Shown piece by piece: positions 7,192 to 54,540 of a stretch of DNA of 64,000 nucleotides. The stretch's first letter is position 1. Every line of letters begins with the position of its first letter. Made by a program: the position numbers and the translations under genes. The notes under the pieces were generated by a model. That model was not told where the DNA came from. It searched no databases and saw only the letters and a list, made by a program, of their open reading frames with translations. Origin of the DNA: Trypanosoma brucei (taxonomy: Eukaryota); NCBI GenBank assembly GCA_000002445.1, contig CP000068.1:1440001-1504000 (forward strand). The letters run 5' to 3'.

Positions 7192-7765
7192 TGCATATGG
7201 AATTTGATCATACACTTCATGAAACTGAGAGTAGCCATGTCACTTCAGTTTGAGTTTTTTCATTCCCATATCCCGAGAAATAACAAAGTGAACGAGGTCG
7301 TAAACAAAGGAAACCACATGCCGCAAACCTAACCCTGCATTAATCACCGACATTTTAAGATGTATAATGCGCCAATTACGTAATCAGGCACAGCGGAACA
7401 TTGCGGAAGGCCGGCACCAAAACACACACCGCAGTGCTTTACTTAACCACATGAAACCAACATCCAAAAAGAAAGGATGCTGATAGGGAAGATGAGTCAC
7501 TGTTAGCTCAATTTAGAACAGGGACTTCAAAACATTTTGGGTTGCTGTATAAGGTGATCACATGAAAAGTGGACGAACTGGAGTGTAGATGGTGTGCAAA
7601 CCATACGGATAACATTCTCAAGAATATCACTGCATTACTCAAAACACTGCAAAGATGTAATAAAATGAGGAAGGAAAGGTGGTAATAGCTACAAGACAGA
7701 ATGACCCTGTCATATGCTCAGTTTGCAACATAATGTGTGAGAGATGACAAGCTGGAGATATTCAC

Positions 7766-9352
7766 ATGTTAAAAATACATCAGGTGGTTTGTGAAAATGC
7801 ACTTCCTGGATTAAAGATTGCGCCAATAGCAGCACAGGCGTATTCTGGCGTCTATCAGTGTCACTTATGTGGTAACGTATTCGAACGAAAGGGGACTACT
7901 GCAACAACATATGCTACAACACCTTCTCACAACTCCAGTAGTATGGAAAGAGCGACAAAAGAGGAAACGAGAAGAAAAAGAACAATGTATAACAACTGTA
8001 CACAAGTGTCAATGACGCCCCAAGCAGTATGCCACGTATAGCTTGTTGACAAGGCATATGTGTCAGAAACATCCTGAAAAGCAAACCGACGTGACACAAC
8101 AAACGGAAATACAAGATGTGAGTAGCGAAGATGAACAGGAGAAAGGAAAAGAAGCATACGAATGTCTCCGCTGCAAACAGGCGTATAAAAGGAAAACATG
8201 GCTTCACCAAACATAAGTGTAATCCTAAGCAGGGTAAAGGGAAACCAAGCGCACAACTACAGCACGTGCTGCCGGAGAGAGAAACATGTAAGATATGCGG
8301 TAAAGAGTACCGTCACAGCTGGATGTTGAGCCATATGAATACAAAACACCACGGGCATGATATCTCACTCAGACCCAAAGTCGATAAATATAAGAAAAGT
8401 AACGAATGAGATATCAAATTTGTAAGCAAAGGAAAACACTGGTGGAGATAATAAAAATAAAGATGACAATATGCCAAAACTTTATGTTGTGACAAATGCA
8501 AGAGGGGTTTCAAAAGCAAGGCATGTCTAACACGCCACAAGTGCGTGAGCATCGAAAATGCGGACCCAAAATGTCAATTTTGTGAACAACCCCCATAGTG
8601 CAATTACACAACCAGAAAACACTAACAAAAATAGATCGAATGTCAGCACCATAGATAGAGCACTCCCAAACTCAGACTCGTCACACAGAAAAAACTTGAT
8701 TTCCACGACAAGAAAGAGAAAAAGAAGAGACCGAGAATGACACTCCAGAAGGTATTAGAAAAATGTTCGATCAGAGAGAGGAGCTCAAACACAAAAGGCA
8801 GAAGGGCAAACAAAGAACCATCGTAGAGAGTTTGCATGTAAAAGGTGTGAGAACACCTGCGTGTCCTGGTGCACCCTAGCATGGAATACCAGAACACACC
8901 ACAAAAATGCAATCACTGTAAAGAGGAAGCGCGAAGAACGATCCCTTGAAATCACACCACAGACCTCTCTCGAGCACCAATGTTCACACTGCTTGAAGGT
9001 ATTTGCACACAATCAATATCTCACAATGCACCTCCAAGCAGCACATGGGCAGACACGTAACACTGATAGGCGAAATGAGCTAAAAGGAAAATGCAAAGAA
9101 ACATCGGCTCACCTATTACAGTCTCCCGCTTTGAGTAAGCTCATGTCAGAGCATAGAGTAGACAGTCTGAAAGAGGATTACTTATACTTTAGTGTTAAGC
9201 TGACGAACTTCCCAAAAGCATTCTTCTCTCCGACTGCAAATTCGGCTTCCACCATAGAAGCGAAGAAATTGATAACCCGACCGCGAGTAAATAGTGATAA
9301 AGGTTACCATCATGTTAAATATTCACTGACTACATGCGACACACTCGGATGA
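7766..9352 (+). pseudogene. C-terminal C2H2 zinc-finger region of the ingi-like polyprotein, fragmented
   Basis: Three CxxC...HxxxH motifs sit in separate ORF fragments. They are homologous to the zinc-finger fragments at 47903-48250 and 48887-49117 of the minus-strand ingi. Confidence 0.6.
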
Positions 9353-16520: not shown

Positions 16521-17981
16521 AATTTATAAAATTGAGAAAAATTCTAAATATTTTTCATTTGAAGTCAAAAATGCAGGCAAAAGAGGGACCTTATGAATGA
16601 CAAAAGAATTGCTTTCTGTGGTGTTTGTATTTTTGTCATCATTACCTTCTGTTTCTTGGTTTGCTTTTTCTAGTTGTGCTTTCACATCCTTTTTTAACTC
16701 ACACTTTTTGGTGTTTCTATCAAATATACAGCCTTTCTCCTTTAGAGTTTCACATTTTCCTTCGTCACCTGTCGCCTCATTGCATAGTTTCTCCTCTGGT
16801 GTCGGTTGGGCTGACGAACAGTTGCAAGCATCCGCGGCTGTAGGGATGTTTCTTTGAATGGCTTTGTTGATCGTGTAGTTTGTTTCTAGTTCAGTGAGTA
16901 AGGGTAGGTTACTGATCTCAGCAAGTTTCGTCCCCTTCGTAACCCCGTGGGAGTCCTCTGCTAGCGTCATTGTTTTCAGTTTATTCCAGAACATTGTTGT
17001 TGGATCTGGGTCTTTGCTGCCGTACAGTTTTTCCATTGCTTGCTCTTTTTCCTGTCCGCTGAAGGGTTTGCTGGCGCCAACGGCTGCTGCAAGCGTGGCG
17101 TCAAAGTTGGCAAGGTTTTTCAGGGCATTTTTGTCGGGAAGCTCGATGGTGTTTATTACAAGTGCCGGCTGTGACAATTTGTTGAATGATTTTTCGGCAT
17201 GCCTTTTCTTAGAATCGCCTTCTGGCCCTGCTAGGCTGCTGAGGTCCGTGAGTTGGGCGTCCGTGCTGCTTAGACTGATGAGCCCCATAGCTACGTGTTT
17301 GTTGGCGCCGTAGGTTGCGCTTTCTACCGGGCCGTTGTTGTTGCCGCCGCCGTGTATTTTGCAGCCTTTTGCGTTGGTCGACCATAGGTTGTTTTTGTCT
17401 GTTTTGCGTTTGTACCCCCCTGGTCGATGCGCACTTTTGTCTTGCCATCCTGTTGTGTGTCCGAGGTCGGTCGCTTTGCAATTTGCTACCTGCGCCGCGA
17501 GTTGGTCGCTTGTGTATAAAGTCCCTGCGTTTTCGTCATCTGCAAAACAACCGTTGGTGTTGGCGTTTGTTGCTTGTCCCGCTATATTCAGATACTCGTA
17601 GAGGCCGCGGAGCAAGTAGTTGCTCCGCCTTATAGCTTCTATTGCCAACATTGCGGTTGCTTTAGTAAACTTGGCTGCTTCCTCTGCTGCTGTTCTGTGC
17701 AGGGCGGCGCTGATTGCTTGTAGTTGTAGTGCCTCTTGGGCGGTCGAAGCTGCTGCTATTAGTATCCGTACCTTGGCCAAGACGGCTTGGTTCGCCGATA
17801 GCTTGTCTGCTGCCGCCGTTAGGCCATCGGCGTGAACCTGCTCCTTGGCCCTGACTTCTGCCGCAATATCGCAAACCTGCTCCAAGCCATTCTTTGTGAG
17901 TGCTTTGTCGTTGGCTGCTTTTACCTTCGTCCGGTTCGCTGTACCGCAAAGGAGCAGTATTAGCGCTATCCAGTGGTGCAT
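16521..17981 (-). CDS. VSG with full-length ORF but lost canonical stop and extended GPI-signal tail (probably non-functional)
   Basis: Single 508-codon ORF 16524-18050. The likely start is 'MHHWIALILLLCGTANRT' (signal peptide). The VSG C-terminal domain '...KGCIFDRNTKKCELKK...TNTTESNSFVIHKVPLLPAFL' continues as 'TSNEKYLEFFSIL*' instead of ending '...LLLAFLLF*'. Confidence 0.8.
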
Positions 17982-28230: not shown

Positions 28231-29049
28231 TTTGAATGTTCTAGTATGCCTATCTCTAATATTCCCTCCCTCTTTTTTCTTCCTTTACTTTCGCGATGCT
28301 ATTTTCTTTTATTGCCATTTTTCAGCTTGAAAAAGGCTACGGATTTGGTTCTGTGCCGTCTTTCCTGCGACTACAGTTTTTCCTGTCTCGATTCTTGCTC
28401 TAGCGTCCTGTTTTTTAGCTGGTGGCGAAGGACACTTCGCTACTGTTCGCTGTAGTTAGGTTAGCAATCGTATTTTCTAGTTTTTGGCACAAATGTAATG
28501 CATATTTGGCCATTATCTATTAAACCTTCTCTGCATTATTGCCACCGTTGCAATAATACCCCAAATTTAACCTTCGAATCCTCAGCGTTTTCTAAGTTTA
28601 ATATTTAACATTAAAGTACCCCATTATATAAAAAATCAGAGTCACTACCATCATCTCCTCTGTATCATCTATCCATTGTTGTGTAAAAATGGCACATCAT
28701 TGTTTGCTCCTGATGTATCATTGTTCGCTGGGCTTCCACCTAGTCTGTCATTTCGTTGAAAAGTTTCATCTTTCCTTTTTCCTCTGGTATCGCCGCTTCT
28801 ATATATAACGAATACATTTGGCTTGTAAACCGTGCTCTCTTTCTCTCTTTCTACACCTTATTATTCTCTCCATCATCTACTTGTGATTGAAGCTGAGCAT
28901 ATTACACGTCCCTGCTGTTCCGCTTTTCCTCTAGCAATACTCCTTTTGATAAATTCTTCTTACCAGCTGGCCCACCCACTAACTCACTCTCATTGCAACC
29001 GTTACTTTTGTTTAACTGCTTCTATTGTGGTTGTCCATTGAGTTCTCAT

Positions 29050-29130
29050 TACTAACCTTATTATAATATTTGTATACACACACGCACTACAGACTCTAGT
29101 ATCATTAGCATTACTATTATAATATCACCT
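29050..29130 (-). repeat. 70-bp repeat, single copy
   Basis: 'ttataatatttgtatacacacacgcactacagactctagtatcattagcattactattataatat'. Confidence 0.7.
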
Positions 29131-29329
29131 AAATATTTATAAAATATTTAAAATAAGAGGATAAATTGAAATTAGAATAGCATTCGTTTTTAATGCACTA
29201 TCACCTCGCTACTTTGCATACACATTCCAGTACGATACAAAAAATTTCACTAACCTTCACAATTTAGTTAAGAAATGTTAAAATATAGAAAGTTCTTGTA
29301 AATTATAAAAATAATTAAAATAGCAAATT

Positions 29330-29600
29330 CATAAAAGGAGCAGCCATCAGGGCCATTTTTTTCCTAGTAGAAAACTACTATTTCGACACTTCTCCGTATT
29401 CCTGTCGTCTTCACCATCTTTACCCTTCCGCCATGCACAATTTCGTTTACCGTCTGTTTTGTCATTCTTAGAAGCGGCTTTATATATATGCGTTGCAAAT
29501 CCAGCTGCAGCTGCTCCCTCTTTTGGTATCAGTCCTGTTCCTGCTGCTGTGGTTTCTACTCCTGCTTTAGGTTTGTACTCTTTTTTTGTTGTCATCATAG
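29330..29600 (-). pseudogene. Orphan VSG 3' fragment (C-terminal ~85 codons plus GPI tail)
   Basis: ORF 29347-29598 reads '...KNDKTDGKRNCAWRKGKDGEDDRNTEKCRNSSFLLGKKWP*'. The next frame continues 'KKMALMAA...'. This is a VSG C-terminal domain and GPI signal with no N-terminal domain upstream. What lies upstream instead is the A-tract block and the telomere repeats. Confidence 0.6.
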
Positions 29601-29759
29601 TTGCAGCCGGAAGCTGCGCATCCTTCTGTGGTCTTGCTCGTGACAGCTTTGAATTTATTCTGTTCCTCTTCTGTTATCTTCTAAAGAGATCCCTTTCGTT
29701 AGTCGTAGGGATGAAACTCGAAACCGCAAGATGGGCGTTGATGGTGCCGCTGGCTTACT

Positions 29760-30240
29760 GATAACGAATATAGGAAAAATTTGATTGAACATGGCTGGCT
29801 GCCGAATAAGGTGGCCAACCGCTTTAAAAAAACCGGCACGCCGTTTAAAAAAATATATTTAACAAAGCTACAAAAAAAAGAATTCAAAAAATTCAAAAAC
29901 CTAAAAAAATAGGGGGAAAGGAAATCATGTGACTGCTGTCGCTTAAAAAATTAAAAGGTTAAAATAAAAAATTAAAGTCGAAAAAAATTTAACCGTAAAA
30001 AAAACAAGTCGTAGCGTCACCGCGAATGAAAAAAAAAAACTGGGTTGACGGCGTGGGTAGGAAAAAAGTCGCCGCTAGACTGATGTCGAAAAAAGTTAGG
30101 GTCCGCATAACAAAACAGCCGCTGAATCACTTTTAAAAAAATTAAAAAATTAGCAAACTTATTGTAAACAAGTAAAAAAAAGAGCAAAAAAACAAAAACA
30201 ATTAAATGAAAGAAAATCAAAAAATAGTTAGAGTAAAATT
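29760..30240. other. A-tract-punctuated low-complexity block abutting the telomere repeats
   Basis: Short GC-rich islands of 10-20 nt ('ccggcacgccg', 'gtgactgctgtcgc', 'gtcgtagcgtcaccgcg', 'gggttgacggcgtgggtagg', 'gtcgccgctagactgatgtcg', 'cagccgctgaatcac') are separated every ~20-35 bp by A6-A11 tracts, often as 'ttaaaaaa(a)tt'. No coding potential on either strand. It is unlike the VSG flanks elsewhere in the window. Confidence 0.5.
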
Positions 30241-30243
30241 AAA

Positions 30244-30360
30244 CCTAACCCTAACCCTAACCCTAACCCTAACCCTAACCTTAACCCTAATCCTAACCCT
30301 AACCCTAACGCTAACCCTAACCCTAACCCTAACCCTACCTAACCTCCTAACTAACTAACC
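30244..30360 (-). repeat. Interstitial telomere repeat tract, (TTAGGG)n on the minus strand, ~17 units
   Basis: Reads 'cctaaccctaaccctaaccctaaccctaaccctaaccTtaaccctaaTcctaaccctaaccctaacGctaaccctaaccctaaccctaaccctacctaacctcctaactaactaacc'. The variant and degenerate units cluster at the VSG-proximal (right) side. That is what a subtelomere-telomere junction looks like when the chromosome end lies to the left. Confidence 0.9.
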
Positions 30361-30474
30361 TTCCTACAAAAATAAAAAAAAAAGGGAAAGAAGAAAAAAA
30401 TTTTAGTTACCAGAAAATATTTTTATCAGAATCACAAACTTACAAACAAAGTTCAATTTTTCGGCTGAATTTAG

Positions 30475-30490
30475 GTGTTAAAATATATCA
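30475..30490 (-). promoter_or_regulatory. VSG 3'UTR 16-mer stability element (perfect match)
   Basis: 'gtgttaaaatatatca' is the reverse complement of TGATATATTTTAACAC. It lies ~40 nt downstream of the stop of the VSG at 30531-31987. Confidence 0.85.
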
Positions 30491-30530
30491 GAAGTTTTCA
30501 AGTGGCAAAATTCTTTTTAAAGAGAGGGGG

Positions 30531-31987
30531 AAATTAAAAAAGCGAAAATTCAGGCCAAAGAGGGACTTTGTTAATCACAAATGAATTGCTTGCTGTGGTG
30601 TTTGTGGGTTTTCCATCTTCTTTTTTTCCCTCTACTTCTTTGTTGGCTTCCTCACTCAGTGTGCACTTTTTGTTTGCATCAGTGGCATTCTCTTTCCATT
30701 TGCATGGGGATTTGCATTCATTTTGTCCCTTCTTGTTGCAGGTTTCTTCTGTTTCAGTGATTTGCGGTTTGCATGCCTTTTTAGCTGCATCAGCTACCGC
30801 TAACATACTTTTGCCTTCAAAGTAACTGACTGCTACTTCGAAATCGTCAGACCTTGCTATATCCTCTAGCGACTTTTCAGGTTGGTCCTTTTCCAGTTTT
30901 TTGAAACTTACTCGCGTGCTTTTCAGTCCAGTAATAAATGTCGCCGAAAAATTTGAGGCATCTCCTATTAGTTCTTGCAATGCCCCTTGTACTGCCGTCT
31001 TCCCTTCGCCTGTTGTTGGGTCGCTTACTTTCTTTGGCCCCATCATCAAATTGTTTGCTGCTTGTAGTGCTTCTGGCGAATTTTTTATCGCTTCTGGGGT
31101 TATTGCTGCAAGTGATGGCGCCGGATTTGCTGCGCTTTGTTGGGCCTCGCAAAGCAGCCGAGCTAGTCGATCGCTGGGTGGCTCGTCGGCGGTGCTGCTC
31201 GGGGCGTCTTTGCATTTGGTTTCTCCGTGAGTTGTTTGTTTCAGCGGCTTGGGTGTCGTCCCAGTTTGCGTCGTTCCTGGCCATGTTATTCCGGCGGTTA
31301 GAGTGCCGGTGCCGCTGTTGGCTGTTATGCACGTTGTCCCGCTGGCTCTGCTGAATGTGTCTGATGCCAGCGTGTTTGTTAGAGTTGCGCCGTTCGTTAG
31401 TACTGCGAGATCCGTTGTGTCCGATACTTTGATTTTTGTGGCGGCTGTTGGTGCCGTCAAGGGTACATTAACACCCGCGTCCGCCAGAGTTTTGAAGTTG
31501 CAGCTGCTGTCGGGGCGGGCAGTTATCGTCATCGTCTGTTTGCACGTTGTTGAGTCAGGCGTCGTCGCTGTTCCTAGAGTTGCTGTTTTCTGAAGCTCGA
31601 AAGCATGCTGGCGCCCGCGTAAATAGCCTTCGTGTCGGGACATTGCTACGATGAGGTCGACCTCTTTGTGCATCTTCTCGTTCTGTGCCTTGCCGACTTG
31701 CTTCAAGAGGGTCGTCGCATACGCTTTTAGAACAGCGTAGAAATGCTTTTTTTCGGGTCTGTCTCCACTCCCCTTGCGAGGTCCCACACTTTTGTCATCG
31801 TTGCAAGGCTTTCGCTGCTTGGGCCGCTTTGTTTAATTCGCGGAGTGTAAGTTTCGACAGCTGTTTTGAAATAAACTGCTTCTTTGCATGGAGTGTTTAT
31901 TGCGCTAAGCATGTCGTCCTCTGGTGTCGCCTGCGAGATGGTTACCACCGCTGCATAAAACAGAAGGCCGACCGTGGATGGTGCCAT
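30531..31987 (-). pseudogene. Telomere-repeat-adjacent VSG, full length except one frameshift and an altered GPI tail
   Basis: N-terminal ORF 31727-31987 has the signal peptide 'MAPSTVGLLFYAAVVTISQA'. The main ORF 30534-31787 (417 codons) carries a VSG N-terminal domain and the C-terminal domain '...CNKKGQNECKSPCKWKENATDANKKCTLSEE...NTTASNSFVINKVPLWPEFSLF*'. The two frames overlap over 31727-31787, which contains a T7 homopolymer (~31747-31753). The frameshift could therefore be real or a sequencing indel. Confidence 0.85.
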
Positions 31988-33239
31988 ATTTATTCCGCCT
32001 AAATAAGCAACCTCAATGTATTTAAAAAAATTTGATTAGCAGTGGGTTGGTTTGCAAACATGTTATGTTGGACTGGCTTGTTTAAATTCAAACACTTGGA
32101 ATTTAAAATTTTACAAACCAAATTTCTTGTCCACGTATCAAATTTCTCACCTACTTGTCAAGCGAACCAGCATTGTACAACTTTAAAAACCTTTAAAAAA
32201 TATTACAATTATATATACAATTTTAATCTTTGCGTCCGATAGCCGCTTCTGTTTTATACAACTGCATACTTCTCAGTCGAAACTGTAACAAAGAAGTGGA
32301 ACCACGCTTTTTCAAGAATAAAAACTGTCTTTTATTCCGTTCATCTTATTTCAGTTTACGTCTCTGGAATTTAAGAATTGGACATTTGCGTCCAGCAAGC
32401 GTTTTTTATGCTTTGCTTTCGTCCATACGATTCTTTATGCCAGCATAAGGTTCAATATTCATGTGTATTGCTCGTTATTTAAATGATGTTTGCGGACGGC
32501 GGTTCCACCAGCAGGTCTGTGTGGCACTGACGCTGCCAATTATCTATACTGTGTAAAGTTCCACCATTGCGTCATTTACGCATATTATAGGCAGTTTCAA
32601 CATTTTTTTCTTCTTTTTACTATTCGCAATAATCTATTAGCAGTCCTCGTTACAAAAATTTCCCTCTCAAAAATGTTATATTGTTTCTCACAAATGTTAG
32701 CCATTACTATAATTAATGAGAAAAAGACATTGACGACACCTCATTTTTACGCAATACCTCCTCTCTGTTTCTGCTTTTTCCTCTTCACAACTTGGAATTA
32801 GAATCCGTCATAAGCCTATAAATCAAAGTCCATACCATCACAGCTGTTAAAACTATGCCCCTTTCTGCTAAATACACAACAGAATTAACTCATATGCTTC
32901 ATTTGATGTATTATTTTCTTCTGCTTTGTGTTATAATTTCTTTTTACCAGGTATGTCTTTCCTTCTTGTCGTTTCATAGTTCTTGTTCTGTTACTGGGAG
33001 CAACGTAGAAATAAAACTTCCCACTGACACTGCTCTCACCGTTATCAAGTGCTTGTCCACAACGATCGCACTACTCGAGTTTGTGTTTCAAACTCCGGTT
33101 TTTCAATTTCCTTTTCCACTATCTTTGCCTGACGGTGATTTCTTTAATATGCCTCTTGTTGTCCCTTTCTTTCTTTCTTGTTCCTTACCTTAAAGTCATT
33201 TTCTATTACCGTTGCTTTATGTGTTTCTATTTCAACTGT

Positions 33240-34030
33240 GCGTTTAGTCTTTATTATTATCATTATTATCATTAATGTTATTACTGCTCTCATTATAATA
33301 TTCGTATATACACACTCACAACACTTTCCTATTATTATTATTACTATTTATACTATTACTGCTCTTATTATAATATTCGTATATACACACTCACAACACT
33401 TTCCTATTATCATTATTATCATTAATGTTATTACTGCTCTCATTATAATATTCGTATATACACACTCACAACACTTTCCTATTATCATTATTATCATTAA
33501 TGTTATTACTGCTCTCATTATAATATTCGTATATACACACTCACAACACTTTCCTATTATCATTATTATCATTAATGTTATTACTGCTCTCATTATAATA
33601 TTCGTATATACACACTCACAACACTTTCCTATTATTATTATTACTATTTATACTATTACTGCTCTTATTATAATATTCGTATATACACACTCACAACACT
33701 TTCCTATTATCATTATTATCATTAATGTTATTACTGCTCTCATTATAATATTCGTATATACACACTCACAACACTTTCCTATTATCATTATTATCATTAA
33801 TGTTATTACTGCTCTCATTATAATATTCGTATATACACACTCACAACACTTTCCTATTATTATTATTACTATTTATACTATTACTGCTCTCATTATAATA
33901 TTCGTATATACACACTCACAACACTTTCCTATTATTATTATTACTATTTATACTATTACTGCTCTTATTATAATATTCGTATATACATACTCACAACACT
34001 GTTCTATCATTATTACAATTATAACTATTA
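33240..34030 (-). repeat. 70-bp repeat tandem array, ~10 copies of 76-77 bp, two alternating subtypes
   Basis: Repeated unit '...attactgctct(c/t)attataatattcgtatatacacactcacaacactttcctatta...'. The spacer is either 'tcattattatcattaatgtt' or 'ttattattactatttatact'. The order is II,I,II,II,II,I,II,II,I,I. It lies ~1.25 kb upstream of the telomere-adjacent VSG. Confidence 0.9.
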
Positions 34031-47605: not shown

Positions 47606-50600
47606 TTTTTTTTTCATTGTGCATTTATTGTGCTCGTGCTTCGGTAGGGTCGTTACTGCTCCTGTGGCTCTGCAAACCAGAAAGGGACGTTGAGCGCAAC
47701 GGGGATCCCATCCTCGCTTTATTGAATGAAACTTTGAAGCTGATTGACTTATCCGCAGTTTCAGCTTCAAGGGGACGTTTCCTCATGGTTTCTGCAGTGC
47801 ACACCCATAACGACTTCGCTGCCGCAGAGGTGTGGTAGGCGAAATCCAACTCCGTGGGCGACCAGTGCCTCTTCACGGCTTGAGTGGGCCCAGATGTTGA
47901 CTCTAAGATTGGGGGGAGGGGGCAGATGGGCTCTCTAGGTTTAAGAGCTCCTTCAGGAAGCTGGCTAGTTGCACACTGAAGAACACTTCCTCGTCCTTCA
48001 GGGTTTCCAGACCGTGCTTTTCCCTTAGTGCTCGCAAGCTTGGGCACTGAAAGAGGTGCACTGCAGACTCCTTACACTTCACCTTCACTGAGTTATACTC
48101 AGCTTTCTTCTTCAGTTGGCCGTGCTTCGCGTGCAGGTGTATCGTGAGGCACTGCTTGACTGTGCACTTCATTTGGCAGTATGGACACTGGAGTGACCTT
48201 TGCAAAAGAGGTGTTACCGCTACCGTGCGGTCCTTCAGCTTCCGTTTCACTGCCGTGGCGTGCTCATGATGTGTGCGCGTGTGTCAAATCAGTGAGCACC
48301 ACTGCTTGTACGCCCTGCTGCGTCTATCATACACATAGTCCATTCCCTCTTTTCCTTCTGTGTGGCGGCCCACCCGAGGACGCTTCTGCGGTCTCTCCCC
48401 ATTTTCCCTTCCTGCTGACTCCAATGACCCACTCACCTTACTCTTTGCCTGAGCTTATGCTTTCACTACCTTTCGCTTTGCCTTCTCTTGTGGCTGAGGA
48501 CGCAATGACTCGTCGTGACCCGGGTGCTTTTCCAGCATGTGTCGCAGCAACCATCTGTAATGATATTGCTTTCTAAAAATGGAACACGCCACTGTAACCG
48601 ACTGCTCTGCCATGTTAGAGTCTTCCGAGTTCGTGTTCGAGGTTGGTTCGCACTTGTGCCTGGTGGGCCATGTCTTGCTTTTGAGGACGCGTTGGCACCT
48701 GTAGCATACAAATTCCTTTTTATCCTGCTCCTCCTGCTCTGCATCGCCATCACTGTCGGACGCGTCCTGTGACTCTATGGCGCTGCGCCTTAACTGCTTT
48801 TCCGGGTTTTTCTGCAGCCACGCGTGTACAGTGTACTTTTTCGCACACCAACGCCATTTGAGTGCGTTGCCATTATCGGCCCCATCTTACTCCACTGCTG
48901 GCACTCTATCCGGAGGGTGCTGTGCCATATACTCCACGAGTAGCCCACACCGCTCAAAGACATCACCGCACACATGACATCTGTAACCATTCTTATGCGT
49001 CTGCACCGCACCCTTAGCTTTCTTGGTCAGTGCTAATGCATAATTCCTCCCCAGACCATGAATCTTCACTAGGTGCACCACGTCAGGCTTTCTCCGCCCG
49101 CAAACCACGTTGAACAATCGGCAAGTGATCTGGTCGTTGCTCCTTGTCGCGATTCCAGGATATGGTGCGTTCGCATTGTCCGATGCTTACTCCGCCCCCC
49201 GGGCGCTCCTCTGCTGTGTCGCTGCGTGGTTCCTGCGTGTCGCACCGTATGCATCCAAGCTGGTCCGTCTTGCGTGTGAGCACCCTGTTAAGCGATCCAA
49301 AATGCTTCGAAGTGCCTGTTCTGAAGTGCGCCATCAGCGTCTCACCCAGACGTACCAGCCTTGTGTGCTTCGGTGCGGCCCGAACGTAGTCGAGTAGCGC
49401 ACTACGATGCGTACGCGGCATCCGGACCTCCTTGAAGGCCTTGTATACCGCATTCCCGACCTTCCTCTCCACACACGTCACTATGTCAGTGATCCATGCT
49501 GGATACGACTGCAGCTTTGTGTTTCCCTGCTCAACTGCCTTTTCAGCAGCTTCATCGCGCGGCACCCCGCAGTGTGAGAACACGAAATGGAAGTTGACGG
49601 ACACAAGAAGCCGCACAATACTCAAGATAAGATCCCAAATGCGTCCCAGAATCGAGCCCTCCACAACTTCAGGGCCAGTGCTCAGCGCCATCAACAGCGA
49701 AATTAAATCCGTGAGGGTCACCACTCTCGTTCTGTGCGTCTTGCTTAGCTCCATGAAATCCGCTAGCCTCTTCAACCCCGCCTCCATCGCCGCACATTCC
49801 GTGCGATAGCTGCAGGATGGCGACCCAACTCCCAGGGCAACCTTCTTCCGCTTCCTCTCTTTCGGGTACACAAGGGCACCTGCGCCTGAAGAGACGTCCA
49901 GCACCACGGACCCGTCCGTCCACACCTGGTTATCATAGTCCTTGAACAACTGTACCTGCCGCATGGTGTGCACCTTCTTGTCCCTCCCCGGCGCACCCGC
50001 TTTGAGGCCGCCTGGCTCGTTGGTGTTAAAGTGGACGCACGTGGCCATCCGCAACACCGTCGCATCGTGTGGATTCTCAGGGCCATCAATGGTGTTTTAC
50101 GGACGCTGTACCGTCGCAAGCATGACATGGGCTGGATGCTCAGGCGGGAATATGCTGTTCGTAATTTTTAATTGCGTTGGGCACTCTGCTTTCAGGCGTA
50201 GATAGCATGCCAAGGCTCTCAGGTGCGCCATATCATTTATAAACTTTAGCCGAGCTTCTCACACGGCATCCTCCCGATTGGCTGCCTTGGGAATACCCGT
50301 CATTATGTGTGCTGCCTGTGCCTGCACCCTCTCTAGCCTCTCATGATCCGACAGCGAGGAATCGGACCACCATGAAGCAATGCCGTAGAATATCTTAGCC
50401 CGGACCAGCACTAGGTAGAATGCTCGCAGTTTCTCCCTGTCTGGGCCCCATTCTGGCGACACCACTGCCCTAAGCTGCATGAGCCGCGTGTCTGCCGCTG
50501 CCTTCACGCTCCGTGCATGCTTGCTCAAACCCTTGTGCGGCTGCACGGTAATACCGAGCAGCTTCGGTGTGTACACTTCCTTCAACACAGTCTCTCCAAT

Positions 50601-52886
50601 CCTCAGGTAAAGCAGGTTTGTGTCCCGCGCACCGAACAGTGTGTACTCAGCTTTCCCCGCTGACCAATTTGTGACTCAACTCAGTCCTTGTTGAACGGTT
50701 CGCTGGATTGCATTCAGGTCAGAGCTCGTGCATACTATTGTGAGGTCGTTCGCAAAGAAAACGTGCTGCAACCCAGGGATGCAGTTCAGCCGCTTGCTCG
50801 GCGAATCCACCTTGACAATGAACAGCAGTGGACCATGCACCGAGCCCTGAGGGACCCAGCATGTGAGGTGTATGTTCTCAGACAGCATATTGCTCGCCCC
50901 CACCCGCGCGGTGCGACCCTGCAGGAAGCCCGCAATTCACGCCACCAGATGCTTCTCAACTCCAAATGTCTCTAGTGCCTTAACCATGCAGCCGTGATCA
51001 ACCGAATCAAAAGCGCGCGCATAGTCAATAAATACAGCTGCTGTCTTCTCACCGTCCCTCCTCCGCCGCACTGCGCTTGTCACCTGCATGAGCGTGTCCA
51101 GCGTCGACTGCGCCGGCATGAAGCCTGCTTGCTGTGGCTGCAGATTGTCTTCAATGCAGTTCCTAACACGACGTGCCACAATGTGCTCCATCACTTTGCA
51201 CAGCGTGCTGATGAGAGTGGCCGGCCGAAAGGACGCGGTACTGCTAGCTGGCTTGCTCGGCTTAAGCAGCGGGACTGTGATGCCGTGCCTCCACTTGGCT
51301 GGTACCCTCCCCGCGCGCAGACTGCAGATGAACAGTCGCAGCGCACACTTTTTGGCTACTCATCCTAGCTGCTTCAGCTCCTCTCAGTGGATTCCATCAT
51401 CGCGCGCCGCCGTGCCAGAATGCAGCTCACACAGCGCAACTTTCAGCTCTGACTCGGTGACCGGCCGGAACGCGCTCCGTCTGGTGCTGGGTATCTTCAT
51501 TTCTGGCGCATGTGGTGCCTTCGTTGACCTGGCCTTGTACATGTTGACCAAAGTTTGTGCTTACTGGCGCTTTGTCAACCGATGGCCATTCACCACCAGC
51601 ATTGGCGAAGTCAACGACCGCGGCGCATATACCGACTTCACCAGGTTCCAGTTCGCCGAATCCGTGGTCGCCGGCTTCGACACATTTTCCTTCCACCAAC
51701 CCAGCGCCGTTTCAGCCAGCGCTTTCTTCCTCCAGCGAGTCAGCCCGTCCAGATTCGTCAGCCCCTGTGTCCAGAACGGTAACGCTACGCCCTTGCCCTT
51801 GGGAATTGTCCTCTTTGCGGCCATTCGGATGCCTCATGTCACCGCCTCGTCGAGGGCATCCGCGCCCTTGTCCGGCCTCTTCATTCCTCTGAATATGAAC
51901 TCGTCACTCAATTTTCTAAACTCCTGTCACCTCGCTTTGTTCCGTGCATACAGTGTACGTGTGGGCTTGGGGGGGGGGGCAATCACGTCTAGGCAGGTGC
52001 CCCACGAACACATCGAACGTGATCTAATAATGATCACTGTGCGGGCTCAGTGTGTATGCCAAGTTAGAGATCTCGCGCAGCCTCCACACAACGTGATGTC
52101 CGGCGACGATAGTGCACCCGTTCCCGGCTGCCTCCTGGTGATCGATCCGGTATTCGCAACTTTCAGATCGCTCTGCACGCACCAGTTGACTACGCACTCT
52201 CCCTTGTCGTCGCTCGGACGAAACGGATCCCACAACACGTGGTGTGAGCTCACGTCCGCTTCTGCTACCAATGGCCCGCTTTCTACCGCTAATTGTTTCA
52301 ACTATGCTTTTGAATTCATCGATTTTCTAGGAAAATAAGCTGAAGCGCCTGCCAGGTTCACAGCAGCAGAAAATCGCAGCGTCGCTGTCACTTTTTCTGG
52401 CACTTCCTTGTCCATCTTTCACACCCCCACTCCCACCCCTGTGCGGTGTTTTTGCCACAACTACATGCTGCTATCCGCCTATTTGAAGCGCAGCACACTC
52501 CACCGACGCTAGGAGTGTCTCCTGCAAGAGACAAAATAAAACCATATCCTCATGAATCTTCCTCTTCATGACAACCCGCTTCGACTGGAAGAAACCCCTA
52601 AATTTCCACTGGTTTCCACGAATAACGGGAGCAAGATTCGTCTCAACATCTTCACTAAGTAGTAGTATAAGCCTTTTTATCCCAATCGAGGTAAGGTTGC
52701 ACGTGCAGAGGAGCAGTCTAATATATTGCTTCACCCTAGAGTGCCGATGCTGCTACATACTTCTTCTCTGGTCGCCGAAAGCCCCCTTTCCACCCCAATC
52801 ATGTTAAACAGGGCATAATGCGGGCGCTTGTCTTCCTCCTGGATAAAGTACTAGACCCCGGCACCACATTGAGGTGACCGGCATCA
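47606..52886 (-). mobile_element. ingi: ingi non-LTR retrotransposon, ~5.28 kb, degenerate (frame-broken)
   Basis: The 5' end (minus sense) is '...ccatggtgatgccggtcacctcaatgtggtgccggggtctagtactttatccaggaggaagacaagcgcccgcattatgccc...', the RIME/ingi terminal region. The 3' end is '...gagcacaataaatgcacaatg' plus A9 (poly-T at 47606-47614 on +). Internal minus-strand ORF fragments cover the endonuclease (52047-52301), 51561-51824, RT (50937-51194 '...AAVFIDYARAFDSVDHGCMVKAL...', 50676-50903, 50259-50588), RNase H (49083-50057) and C2H2 zinc fingers (48887-49117 'HVCGDVFERCG', 47903-48250 'CPYCQMKCTVKQCLTIHLHAKHG'). The coding region is interrupted by multiple frameshifts. Confidence 0.9.
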
Positions 52887-52935: not shown

Positions 52936-54540
52936 ATTCTAAAATGCCACCAAACTCATAACAGCAGCAGCCATACTCAGGGCCATTTTCTTATTTACAA
53001 AAAAACTAGAATCATTGCACTTGTCTTCAATTCGACCACAGTTGGCTTTTTCTCCGGGTTTGTGACCCTCATTTTCCTTTTCACAGTCCTTTTTTTTGGT
53101 ATGTCTTGTGTACCTATTTGACTCACGTTTCCCATCATTCCACCATTTTTCTTGGTTTTCTTTTTCTACTTTCTTTTTGGCCTCTTCACTCAATGTGCAC
53201 TTTTTTCCTTCGCCTCCTTTGGGGTTAAAAACGCACCCCTTATCCTTTAAGTTTTCACATTCTTTCTGGTTGTCGTTTGCTGTTTTGCAAACTCGTTCTG
53301 CTTCCTTTGTGGCTCTTAGGTGGTCTGTTGCGGGTTGGTTGCCGCTACTTTGCCCCGTTGTTGCTGCTGCAAATAGTTTGCTCTCAGATGCCAGTCCTTC
53401 GGCTGCCTTTGAGAGGAGCGTTAGAGAAGCTGCTAAGGCATTGCTTGTGCTTGCTGCTGTTGCTCCTGCTCGCATTGCTGCTGCTGCAGTTTCAATTTTT
53501 GTTGCCCATGCTAGCTCCTGCATACCTTTTTTGCCTGTTTTATATTTGGGCATTTTGAAGCAAACGCCGTTTGTTCTTGTCCCGTCGCAGGTCGCTGCTC
53601 CGTCAGTGGTGCCGAAGTAAGCGTCCGTTTTGAAAATCTTGATGTGGCTTTCTAAGCTCCGCAGCGCTGTGAGCATCTTGTCCGGTGTTATTTCCTCCTC
53701 CGTATTGAAGTTACAGTCTTTTACCAAGGCGTCGTATTGGTTTTTGATATCGTTTTCCGCTGCCAGGTTATGTGCTTTTGGTGCATGGTTGCTGGCGTGA
53801 TCACTGCAGATCTTGTTTGCGCCCGTTGGGATGTCTGAGTTTCCTTGGGTGCATACACAAATTAAAATGTCCGCTAAGCAGTCGTCAGTGCCTGTTACCG
53901 TGCCTGCTCCGCAGAAAGCTGCCGAGGCCCTTGCCGCTGATGTTTTCCCGGCATCGGTGAACTCTTTTGCCGCTTCCCCTGTTCCGATCGCCGCCTCTGT
54001 GAGCAGTTTTTTAATCTTTGCTGGTTCGGCATTGTCGATGGCTGCCTGAAGACTCTTGATTTTGGTCTGTAGGGTTGAAGCTTGTTCTAGAATGAGGCTC
54101 ATTCTTGTTCGCGCAAGCTTTAGCTGTTGGTCTGTTATGGATAGTTTGGAGAAGTTGCTGGGTCTGCTGTCGGCGCCGTGCTTCTTGAAGACTCTTTCGG
54201 CGCTTGCTGCCCATTCCGCCCAGCTGGAAGCCCAGTGAGAATTTTCTTTGGCTGGCGACGTTTGCGGGTCCCATTGCTTCTGGGTTCCGTCTGGTTTTAG
54301 AAATTGATTTACCCACGCGGGTCCCCCTAAAGTCATGTTAACGTCGTTGATAGTCTCCATTGCGTTTTGCCATTCCTGTTCCTGGTCTGGAGCTTTGATC
54401 TTCCCTGCTTGTAGTTGTAATACACTGCACAGAGCTTTATAAACGCTGGCGTGCGCTGCGGTTGCAGTGTCGGCGTCACTGCTTTGTGGTACCATCATCA
54501 AAATGACTGACGCTGTTGCTGCGTAACCTGGCATTGCCAT
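52936..54540 (-). CDS. Intact VSG gene (b-type N-terminal domain), 533 codons
   Basis: Single uninterrupted ORF 52939-54540. Signal peptide 'MAMPGYAATASVILMMVPQSSDA'. N-terminal domain with '...CLADILICVCTQGNSD...'. Two Cys-rich C-terminal subdomains '...CKTANDNQKECENLKDKGCVFNPKGGEGKKCTLSEE...CEKENEGHKPGEKANCGRIEDKCNDSSFFVNKKMALSMAAAVMSLVAF*' give a canonical GPI signal. Confidence 0.9.

What the first reader, a model, noticed from the sequence alone, without database searches (positions are those of the whole stretch)
29330..29600. Orphan VSG C-terminal/3' fragment next to the telomere junction: a recombination scar
Only the last ~85 codons of a VSG (Cys-rich C-terminal domain, 'NSSFLLGKKMAL...' GPI region) are present, with a normal 3' flank and 70-bp repeat (29050-29130) downstream. 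In place of the N-terminal domain there is the A-tract block and then the telomere tract. VSG 3' ends are the usual downstream boundaries of gene conversion. This therefore looks like the resident array VSG whose 5' part was replaced when the telomeric segment was inserted.
Basis: inference. Interest (0 to 1): 0.5.

Follow-up and report, generated by a model that had tools for sequence, protein, structure and literature searches.

The report
Orphan VSG C-terminal pseudogene fragment
This is a decaying leftover of a trypanosome surface-coat (VSG) gene that keeps only its tail end, sitting in a silent gene array of the T. brucei TREU927 reference genome beside a short internal stretch of telomere repeats; such fragments are a common, known class, and only its neighbourhood is mildly unusual.

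Summary
The minus strand of 29,315-29,690 encodes a VSG C-terminal domain (Pfam PF10659, E 2.4e-15 after frame repair). It has 75 homologues, all aligned at the C-termini of VSGs. The fragment is longer than reported: about 125 codons, covering the whole two-subdomain domain plus the GPI signal.

It is decayed. Two +/-1 frameshifts lie in A7 runs, and 4 of 8 conserved cysteines are substituted. Its 3' context is that of a normal array unit: a degenerate 16-mer, then a single 70-bp repeat about 190 bp past the stop.

No N-terminal domain lies between it and the telomere tract. Homology and strand composition both break at about 29,690-29,705, in the hinge.

Upstream lie 0.54 kb of unidentified DNA with reversed strand asymmetry, then (TTAGGG)16. 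That tract starts 197 nt downstream of another VSG pseudogene, which follows ten 70-bp repeats.

The window is T. b. brucei TREU927, in a 1.6-Mb record. VSG fragments are a known archive class there.

The "scar of a telomeric insertion" reading is plausible but unproven. The spacer is unexplained, and a pre-existing C-terminal-only fragment fits equally well in most respects. Interest is low to moderate.

The parts
29315..29690 (-). VSG C-terminal-domain pseudogene fragment: two 4-Cys subdomains, GPI signal, and TAA stop at 29,315-29,317. It has no N-terminal domain and no start codon.
   Evidence: Pfam PF10659 E 2.4e-15, profile 5-104/104. 75 homologues. Frameshift-aware alignments end at 29,671-29,705. 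Alignment A1 shows 51-59% identity, with Cys replaced by F10, Y41, F61 and S70. 79% nucleotide identity over 190 nt to a T. equiperdum VSG CTD.
29581..29587 (-). Frameshift 1: an A7 run where A6 would keep the frame (...NYDDNKK|EYKPK...).
   Evidence: Frames; sequence.
29356..29362 (-). Frameshift 2: an A7 run where A8 would keep the frame (...FLLGKK|MALMAAPFMNLLF*).
   Evidence: sequence.
29275..29290 (-). Degenerate VSG 3'UTR 16-mer (TTCTATATTTTAACAT, 13/16 identical to TGATATATTTTAACAC).
   Evidence: 84% identity to the 3'UTR of the T. equiperdum homologue.
29048..29128 (-). Single 70-bp repeat, about 190 bp downstream of the fragment's stop. It is the upstream element of the next array VSG (about 28,300 to 26,600).
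   Evidence: Self-BLAST at 77-80% identity to the 33,255-34,015 array and other copies, same orientation. TRF consensus.
29700..29825 (.). Spacer part 1: about 46% GC, with no detectable homology to VSG or anything else. The + strand AT skew turns positive here.
29826..30239 (+). Spacer part 2, the A-tract block: 51% A on the + strand, 18 runs of A>=5 and no T runs. Its strand asymmetry is opposite to the rest of the array. One inverted TTAGGG hexamer lies at 30,096-30,101. Origin unknown.
   Evidence: No protein, Rfam, plasmid, prokaryote or metagenome match.
30240..30366 (-). Interstitial telomere tract: 16 TTAGGG units on the minus strand (30,337 down to 30,240) with three variant units. 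It is degenerate on the VSG-proximal side (30,338-30,366) and ends abruptly on the distal side (TTAGG|TTTAAT).
30367..30533 (-). 3'UTR and flank of the telomere-linked VSG, with a perfect 16-mer at 30,475-30,490. The distance from stop to telomere repeats is 197 nt.
   Evidence: Range for expression sites from PMC2567434.
30534..31987 (-). Telomere-linked VSG pseudogene, 98% identical to EATRO1125 VSG 1125.3097. It has a -1 frameshift in the A7 run at 31,747-31,753.
33255..34015 (-). Ten tandem 75-bp copies of the 70-bp repeat, upstream of the telomere-linked VSG. This is the proposed homologous 5' boundary of the inserted cassette.
   Evidence: TRF: 10.1 copies, 94% matches..

Best explanation
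The feature is a non-functional relic. It is the 3' third of a silent array VSG (complete C-terminal domain, GPI signal, 3'UTR) in the subtelomeric VSG array of T. b. brucei TREU927, in a 1.6-Mb record that is probably chromosome 5. It still sits in the normal 3' context of an array unit.

Shown. It is a VSG C-terminal domain. It lacks any N-terminal domain. Its 5' limit lies in the inter-domain hinge at about 29,690-29,705. It is decaying, with two poly-A slippage frameshifts and four of eight structural cysteines lost. Immediately upstream lie 0.54 kb of foreign-looking DNA, then a truncated telomere tract belonging to a VSG cassette with telomere-proximal hallmarks.

Inferred. A break in the array was repaired by copying a telomere-proximal VSG cassette. 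Copying started by homology in the 70-bp repeats (33,255-34,015) and ran through the VSG and its 3'UTR into the first ~100 bp of telomere repeats. The nascent end was then joined illegitimately to the resident unit at the hinge of its VSG. T. brucei lacks classical end joining, so the join probably used microhomology or template switching, and the 0.54-kb spacer may be templated filler. The event deleted the resident upstream region and N-terminal domain.

The fragment now does nothing except possibly serve as a patch of homology for segmental conversion.
For: - Identity and extent.
- No N-terminal domain: Pfam on all six frames; pre-CTD segments of 45 homologues score 21.3 against a shuffle mean of 20.3 +/- 3.3.
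- Coincident break: homology and AT skew both break at about 29,690-29,700.
- Normal array context: every unit in the window runs stop, about 150-430 bp, then a 70-bp repeat, with all units on the minus strand and a period of about 3.3-3.6 kb. This fragment follows the pattern, which argues for a colinear array rather than two fused ends.
- Telomere-proximal hallmarks of the neighbour: ten homogeneous 70-bp repeats against single degenerate copies elsewhere; the only perfect 16-mer; 197 nt from stop to repeats against 200-1590 nt in expression sites (PMC2567434); a tract that is degenerate on the VSG side and abrupt on the far side.
- Mechanistic background: telomere-adjacent VSGs are copied from the 70-bp repeats by break-induced replication, and NHEJ is absent (PMC12137147). 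Pol theta-mediated MMEJ is present (PMC8311970).
Against: - No parental, donor or orthologous sequence was available, so no breakpoint is proven.
- The 0.54-kb spacer has no identified source. Its reversed strand asymmetry is not predicted by a simple replacement.
- A boundary exactly at the hinge is also what a generic C-terminal-only fragment would show, and such fragments are common (PMC1934917).
- The model needs an illegitimate join in an organism that strongly prefers homologous repair.
- The fragment appears more decayed than the telomere-linked VSG, which is 98% identical to its EATRO1125 copy. The fragment may therefore be older than the event.
Confidence: 0.5

Rival explanations
1. 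Pre-existing fragment. The C-terminal-only fragment, perhaps with part of the spacer, already existed as one of the many fragmentary VSGs of the archive. The telomere-linked cassette later landed, or was converted, next to it. The adjacency is then coincidental and the fragment is not the scar of that event.
For: Fragmentary VSGs are the remaining roughly one-fifth of the TREU927 archive (PMC1934917; PMC1868767). The boundary lies at the domain hinge, where VSG homology tracts often end (PMC1934917). The fragment is heavily decayed, with 4/8 Cys lost and two frameshifts, while the neighbour is 98% identical to its EATRO1125 copy. 540 bp of unrelated DNA separate it from the telomere tract.
Against: The fragment occupies exactly the slot where one full unit is expected. 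The inter-repeat distance (29,128 to 33,255) is only about 0.6-0.8 kb longer than a normal unit, so there is no room for an additional complete resident unit. Nothing upstream resembles a second 70-bp repeat that would mark a separate unit for the fragment.
Confidence: 0.27
2. Former chromosome end. The TTAGGG tract marks a real former chromosome end (VSG plus eroded telomere). That end was either fused to another end that had lost its repeats, or extended by break-induced replication into another subtelomere. The DNA left of 30,240, including the spacer and fragment, would then come from a different chromosome arm.
For: The telomere tract ends abruptly against DNA of opposite strand asymmetry. 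The spacer carries TTAGGG-like motifs on the + strand, inverted relative to the tract, including one perfect hexamer at 30,096-30,101. Fusions between one short telomere and one deleted subtelomere are a classic outcome of telomere erosion in other eukaryotes (own knowledge).
Against: About 15 VSG units on both sides of the junction are on the same strand with the same unit architecture, which a head-to-head fusion of two like ends would not give. One hexamer in 540 bp is within chance (about 0.3 expected). The 70-bp-repeat boundary at 33,255-34,015 is explained better by a cassette insertion.
Confidence: 0.13
3. Assembly artefact. Two BAC or shotgun contigs of the repetitive, hemizygous array were joined wrongly in or near the telomere tract or A-rich block.
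For: The two annotated VSG proteins of the window carry accessions from different primary submissions, AAX69825 and AAX69703. Arrays are hard to assemble. A GAATTC site lies inside the block at 29,880-29,885.
Against: TREU927 is a finished Sanger genome (own knowledge). The junction sequences are unique in the window, with no repeat to mis-join on. A chimera at the EcoRI site would require two unrelated halves that are both extreme A-tract DNA. There is no vector or bacterial similarity.
Confidence: 0.05

Closest known systems
VSG gene fragments (C-terminal-domain-only pseudogenes) of the T. brucei TREU927 silent archive (Berriman et al. 2005; VSGdb, PMC1868767; PMC1934917)
   Same: It lies in a subtelomeric array on the same strand as its neighbours and keeps the C-terminal domain, GPI signal, 3'UTR element and downstream 70-bp repeat. 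It has no N-terminal domain and carries frameshifts.
   Different: Its upstream neighbour is not array spacer. It is a 0.54-kb A-tract block followed by an interstitial telomere tract. Half of the structural cysteines are already lost.
Two-subdomain, eight-cysteine VSG C-terminal domains (types 1/3/6 in VSGdb nomenclature), e.g. EATRO1125 VSG 1125.4190 (P0003) and the T. equiperdum OVI CTD protein SCU72569.1 (P0001)
   Same: 51-59% amino-acid identity, with 79% nucleotide identity over 190 nt to the T. equiperdum gene. The shared motifs include KPK..G.E, NCAWRKGK.GEDD..TEKCRN.SF and a hydrophobic tail ending in LLF.
   Different: Cys is replaced by F, Y, F and S at four positions. Two frameshifts are present. 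There is no attached N-terminal domain.
Telomere-proximal VSG cassette (70-bp repeats, VSG, telomere) as in bloodstream and metacyclic expression sites and minichromosomes (PMC2567434; PMC12137147)
   Same: The neighbouring unit 34,015 to 30,240 has a multi-copy 70-bp array, a VSG with a perfect 16-mer, and TTAGGG repeats 197 nt past the stop in the correct orientation.
   Different: It is internal rather than terminal. Only 16 repeats remain, and the VSG is a pseudogene in TREU927.
Short interstitial telomeric sequences inserted at double-strand-break repair sites in vertebrates (PMC7215372; PMC2246262; PMC8537989)
   Same: A short internal (TTAGGG)n tract with an abrupt junction to unrelated DNA, adjacent to extra DNA of uncertain origin.
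   Different: Here the tract is contiguous with a natural subtelomere (VSG 3' flank, degenerate proximal repeats), so it looks copied from a telomere rather than added by telomerase at a break. No spliced-leader sequence, as a full retro-copy of the trans-spliced telomerase RNA would carry, is present.

Membership tests
VSG C-terminal domain (Pfam PF10659 Trypan_glycop_C) | Profile match above the curated gathering score (21.4 bits) | tested here: met
VSG C-terminal domain (functional) | [quoted passage not shown] | tested here: not met
   Only 4 of 8 conserved Cys columns retain Cys; the others are F10, Y41, F61 and S70.
VSG C-terminal domain (functional) | Uninterrupted reading frame through a GPI-anchor signal to the stop | tested here: not met
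   Two +/-1 frameshifts lie in the A7 runs at 29,581-29,587 and 29,356-29,362. The GPI tail MALMAAPFMNLLF* is out of frame.
VSG gene (complete) | An N-terminal domain (type A or B) upstream of the C-terminal domain | tested here: not met
   No Pfam VSG domain in six frames of 29,600-30,245. No excess similarity to pre-CTD segments of 45 homologues. Composition break at about 29,695.
Array VSG unit / VSG fragment class of TREU927 | Located in a subtelomeric tandem array, with a 3'UTR 16-mer and a 70-bp repeat marking the next unit | tested here: met
   16-mer-like element (13/16) at 29,275-29,290. 70-bp repeat at 29,048-29,128. About 15 co-oriented VSG units. Source record is TREU927.
Telomere-proximal VSG cassette (for the neighbouring unit) | 70-bp repeat tract upstream, and TTAGGG repeats a few hundred nt downstream in VSG-to-telomere orientation | tested here: met
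   Ten repeats at 33,255-34,015. 197 nt to 16 TTAGGG units on the coding strand. Published range 200-1590 nt.
Telomere-proximal VSG cassette (for the neighbouring unit) | Terminal position at a chromosome end | tested here: not met
   About 30 kb of further array follows the tract in the window.
Interstitial telomeric sequence formed at a DSB repair site | An orthologous locus without the tract, colinear on both sides | not testable with these tools
   No T. brucei genomic DNA collection was searchable. Exact-protein look-ups of window ORFs found no contigs.
Telomerase-RNA-flanked ITS (TERC-ITS type) | Flank distal to the G-strand repeats is a retro-copy of telomerase RNA 5' of the template | tested here: inconclusive
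   The TbTR template is at nt 339-349 of a trans-spliced RNA (PMC8643685). No spliced-leader sequence is in the window. The block (410-540 nt) is longer than 338 nt. The TbTR sequence itself was not available for alignment.

The most novel reading that the evidence does not exclude
The interstitial telomere tract and the reversed-asymmetry spacer may be the footprint of an end-capture event. In that reading, a telomere-proximal VSG (for example minichromosomal) with a critically short telomere was physically incorporated into a megabase-chromosome array. This would be a route by which telomeric VSGs are archived and arrays grow. The orphan C-terminal fragment would mark the resected recipient end, and the spacer would be templated filler from microhomology-mediated repair.
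Probability: 0.15. Interest if true: 0.55.

Novelty: new member of a known kind. Interest (0 to 1): 0.27.

Why it matters
By itself the fragment is ordinary. VSG gene fragments are a recognised class of the silent archive, and this one lies in the long-published TREU927 reference.

The modest value lies in the junction. A telomere-type VSG cassette with about 100 bp of telomere repeats is embedded co-linearly in an array. If its history could be reconstructed from other strains, it would give a concrete example of how telomeric VSGs move into arrays. It would also show how illegitimate joins form in an organism without classical end joining.

An internal TTAGGG tract could also bind TRF/RAP1 or base J locally, which is testable with existing ChIP data.

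Tried and rejected
1. Frameshifted N-terminal domain upstream. Pfam on six frames, tblastn of 75 VSGs (only noise above 29,700) and a frameshift-aware Smith-Waterman against shuffles all found none.

2. Closer paralogue of the fragment. The word-indexed search found nothing. The exhaustive search gave at most 63% identity. No paralogue exists in the window.

3. Retrieving the locus or orthologues. Exact-product look-ups failed for all window ORFs and for EATRO1125 VSG 1125.3097. Only a T. equiperdum contig (L001) could be fetched. It shows an ordinary full-length pseudogene context with no T-rich block or telomere repeats.

4. Origin of the 29,700-30,239 spacer.
- No protein homologue in six frames.
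- No Rfam family.
- No plasmid or vector match, and no prokaryote or metagenome match to two 21-22-mers.
- No similarity to anything else in the window, including the putative retroelement remnants seen by eye elsewhere in the window, so an ingi/RIME tail is unlikely.
- No internal repeat structure and no 10-bp phasing.
- No match to primers from the VSG-telomere interval of Lister 427 expression sites.

5. Second VSG 3' end inside the block. Frame 2 reads '...DSSHMISFPPIFLGF*', followed by a 16-mer-like AAATATATTTTTTTAAAC. This is attractive by eye but T-rich DNA gives hydrophobic tails by default. Pfam does not see it and MAFFT does not align it with eleven real 3' ends. Rejected as unsupported.

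6. Retro-copied telomerase RNA flank. There is no spliced leader and the length does not fit. The TbTR sequence was not obtainable.

7. Similarity to the 177-bp minichromosome repeat. Only a 10-mer recalled from memory matched, so it was not pursued.

8. Literature. Searches for internal telomere repeats in T. brucei arrays found no description of such a locus. Marcello & Barry 2007 is not held.

Full report
**Source and setting**

Two ORFs of the window are exact matches to T. brucei brucei TREU927 proteins on a 1,608,198-bp record. They are XP_845139.1 at 52,939-54,540 and XP_845138.1 at 16,524-17,981, both annotated 'VSG, atypical'. I take the record to be chromosome 5 from its size (own knowledge).

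The window is a silent VSG array. tblastn with 75 VSGs plus Pfam shows about 15 VSG units. All are on the minus strand with a period of about 3.3-3.6 kb. Each unit runs from its stop codon through about 150-430 bp to a 70-bp repeat, then about 1.2 kb to the next VSG.

EATRO1125 VSGnome entries are 98-99% identical to three VSGs of the window: 1125.200, 1125.4989 and 1125.3097.

**The observation**

The minus strand of the flagged interval encodes a VSG C-terminal domain.
- The raw 83-aa ORF (29,347-29,598) scores E 3.8e-07 against Pfam PF10659.
- A 114-aa sequence assembled across two frame changes scores E 2.4e-15 and covers profile positions 5-104 of 104.
- An exhaustive HMMER search of 1.84 billion representatives returned 75 proteins at E<=1e-3. 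In the full-length (~500-aa) hits the match ends within roughly the last 30 residues of the VSG.
- A sample of these are named VSGs or VSG-domain proteins of T. brucei, T. b. equiperdum and T. equiperdum.

A frameshift-aware Smith-Waterman that I wrote aligns the best homologues from about 29,671-29,705 down to the stop at 29,315-29,317. The fragment is therefore about 125 codons, not 85. It comprises both four-cysteine subdomains, the GPI signal and the stop.

The ORF reads ...GKKWP*, and MALMAAPFMNLLF* follows in another frame after an A7 run at 29,356-29,362 where A8 is needed. A second slip lies in the A7 run at 29,581-29,587 where A6 is needed.

In a seven-sequence alignment the fragment is 51-59% identical to its relatives. 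It carries F, Y, F and S at four of the eight conserved cysteine columns. By the VSGdb criterion that a foldable domain needs four or eight cysteines (PMC1868767), it is a dead domain.

**3' context**

A 13/16 copy of the VSG 3'UTR 16-mer lies at 29,275-29,290. The 3'UTR matches that of the closest homologue's gene at 84%. A single 70-bp repeat at 29,048-29,128 matches the other copies in the window in the same orientation. The 70-bp repeat belongs functionally to the next VSG downstream.

**5' limit**

No VSG N-terminal domain is found in any of the six frames of 29,600-30,245 (Pfam, E up to 10). The 72 residues that precede the C-terminal domain in 45 full-length homologues align to 29,684-29,900 no better than to shuffled DNA (mean 21.3 against 20.3 +/- 3.3).

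Independently, the + strand AT skew flips from about -0.5, typical of minus-strand VSG coding DNA here, to +0.2 at 29,690-29,700. Homology and composition thus break at the same place, in the hinge between the domains.

**What lies upstream**

From 29,700 to 30,239 there are about 540 bp that I could not identify.
- The first part is a 126-bp segment of 46% GC.
- The second is a 414-bp block that is 51% A on the + strand, with 18 runs of A>=5 and none of T. This is the extreme of the whole window.
- The rest of the window is T-rich on the + strand (A 0.24, T 0.35), so the block has the opposite strand asymmetry to the array around it.
- It has no internal repeat structure or helical phasing.
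- It has no similarity to anything else in the window, no protein homologue, no Rfam match, and no plasmid, prokaryote or metagenome match.

Next comes the telomere tract, 30,240-30,337: 16.3 hexamers at 92% match. On the minus strand it reads TTAGGG. It is degenerate on the side facing the upstream VSG (GTAGGAAGGTTAGTTAGTTAGGAGGTTAGGTAGGG...). It ends abruptly on the far side (...GGGTTAGG|TTTAATTTT). That polarity is the one expected of a natural telomere following a VSG.

That VSG (31,987 to 30,534) has these properties:
- It is 98% identical to EATRO1125 VSG 1125.3097.
- It is disabled in TREU927 by a -1 slip in yet another A7 run, at 31,747-31,753.
- It has the only perfect 16-mer in the window.
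- Its stop is 197 nt from the repeats, at the low end of the 200-1590 nt measured for expression sites (PMC2567434).
- It is preceded by ten homogeneous 70-bp repeats at 33,255-34,015, whereas other units have single, degenerate copies.

The unit therefore looks like a telomere-proximal VSG cassette that is now internal.

**Interpretation**

The most economical history is an ectopic repair event in a colinear array.
- Copying of a telomere-proximal cassette began by homology in the 70-bp repeats, as in VSG switching by break-induced replication (PMC12137147).
- It ran through the VSG into the first ~100 bp of telomere.
- The end was then joined illegitimately to the resident unit at the hinge of its VSG, removing that unit's upstream region and N-terminal domain.
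- T. brucei lacks classical end joining but has Pol theta and MMEJ, so a microhomology or template-switch join with templated filler is the likeliest source of the spacer.

This is inference, and none of the joins can be verified without parental sequences. I give it 0.5.

The main rival (0.27) is that the C-terminal-only fragment already existed. Fragmentary VSGs are the remaining roughly one-fifth of the TREU927 archive (PMC1934917), and homology tracts between VSGs often end in the C-terminal domain or hinge (same paper). Against it, the spacing of 70-bp repeats leaves room for only one resident unit.

A former chromosome end that was fused or extended (0.13) is suggested by the abrupt telomere end and the reversed asymmetry. 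It fits poorly with about 15 co-oriented, uniformly built units on both sides.

An assembly chimera (0.05) cannot be excluded without reads. It is unlikely, because the junction sequences are unique and the genome is a finished Sanger assembly.

The incoming cassette kept its own complete 3' end and telomere, and the resident boundary is 5' of the C-terminal domain.

**Comparison with known things**

The fragment is a member, as a pseudogene, of the VSG C-terminal domain family and of the annotated class of VSG gene fragments. It fails the tests for a functional domain (cysteines, reading frame) and for a complete VSG (no N-terminal domain).

The telomere tract resembles vertebrate short interstitial telomeric sequences formed at break-repair sites. 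It differs in being contiguous with a natural subtelomere.

A telomerase-RNA retro-copy flank, as in rodent TERC-ITSs, was considered. There is no spliced leader in the window, and the block is longer than the 338 nt that precede the TbTR template (PMC8643685).

**Verdict**

The object is an ordinary decaying VSG C-terminal fragment in a well-known reference genome. Only its juxtaposition with an embedded telomere-type cassette and an unexplained 0.54-kb A-tract spacer is of some interest.

Noticed in passing
window 33255-34015: Ten tandem, 94%-matching 75-bp copies of the 70-bp repeat. Other array units in the window carry only single, more degenerate copies. This is the kind of tract expected upstream of a telomere-proximal VSG.
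   Followed up: partly
window 29356-29362, 29581-29587, 31747-31753: All three frameshifts that could be located (two in the fragment, one in the telomere-linked VSG relative to its EATRO1125 copy) are +/-1 length changes in A7 runs on the coding strand. In a Sanger-finished genome this points to homopolymer slippage as a main route of VSG pseudogenisation here.
   Followed up: partly
window 30475-30490 versus 12 other sites: Only the telomere-linked VSG has a perfect 3'UTR 16-mer (TGATATATTTTAACAC). The array VSGs have 1-3 mismatches.
   Followed up: partly
window 30534-31987 (-): The telomere-linked VSG, 98% identical to EATRO1125 VSG 1125.3097, gets no hit from either Pfam VSG N-terminal model or the C-terminal model, even after frame repair. 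Its other relatives are named VSGs at 38-41% identity. It is a VSG lineage poorly covered by Pfam.
   Followed up: partly
window 16524-17981, 30534-31787, 52939-54540: EATRO1125 VSGnome proteins 1125.4989, 1125.3097 and 1125.200 are 98.3%, 98.1% and 99.3% identical to three VSGs spread over 38 kb of this TREU927 window. This suggests the array segment, possibly including the telomere-linked VSG, is shared between the two East African strains.
   Followed up: partly
window 30096-30101 (+): One perfect TTAGGG hexamer and several TTAGGG-like motifs (GGGTAGG, GGGTTGA, TAGGGGG) lie on the + strand of the A-tract block, inverted relative to the 16-repeat tract. This is within chance expectation but relevant to an end-fusion reading.
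   Followed up: no
window 7700-9100 (+): An A-rich (41-44% A) stretch on the + strand whose translation shows repeated C..C....H...H zinc-finger-like spacing by eye. It is possibly a degenerate retroelement (ingi/DIRE-type) ORF remnant on the strand opposite to the VSGs.
   Followed up: no
window 49083-50057 (-) and 51088-52338 (+): Two long ORFs (324 and 416 aa) without any Pfam hit lie in the one stretch of the window (about 46-52 kb) where no VSG unit is detected. The first contains a 'TDGS...GAGA' motif reminiscent of RNase H by eye. It is possibly a degenerate retrotransposon interrupting the array.
   Followed up: partly
window 29880-29885: A GAATTC (EcoRI) site lies inside the A-tract block. 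It was considered as a possible BAC chimera joint and judged unlikely, because both sides are the same extreme A-tract DNA.
   Followed up: partly
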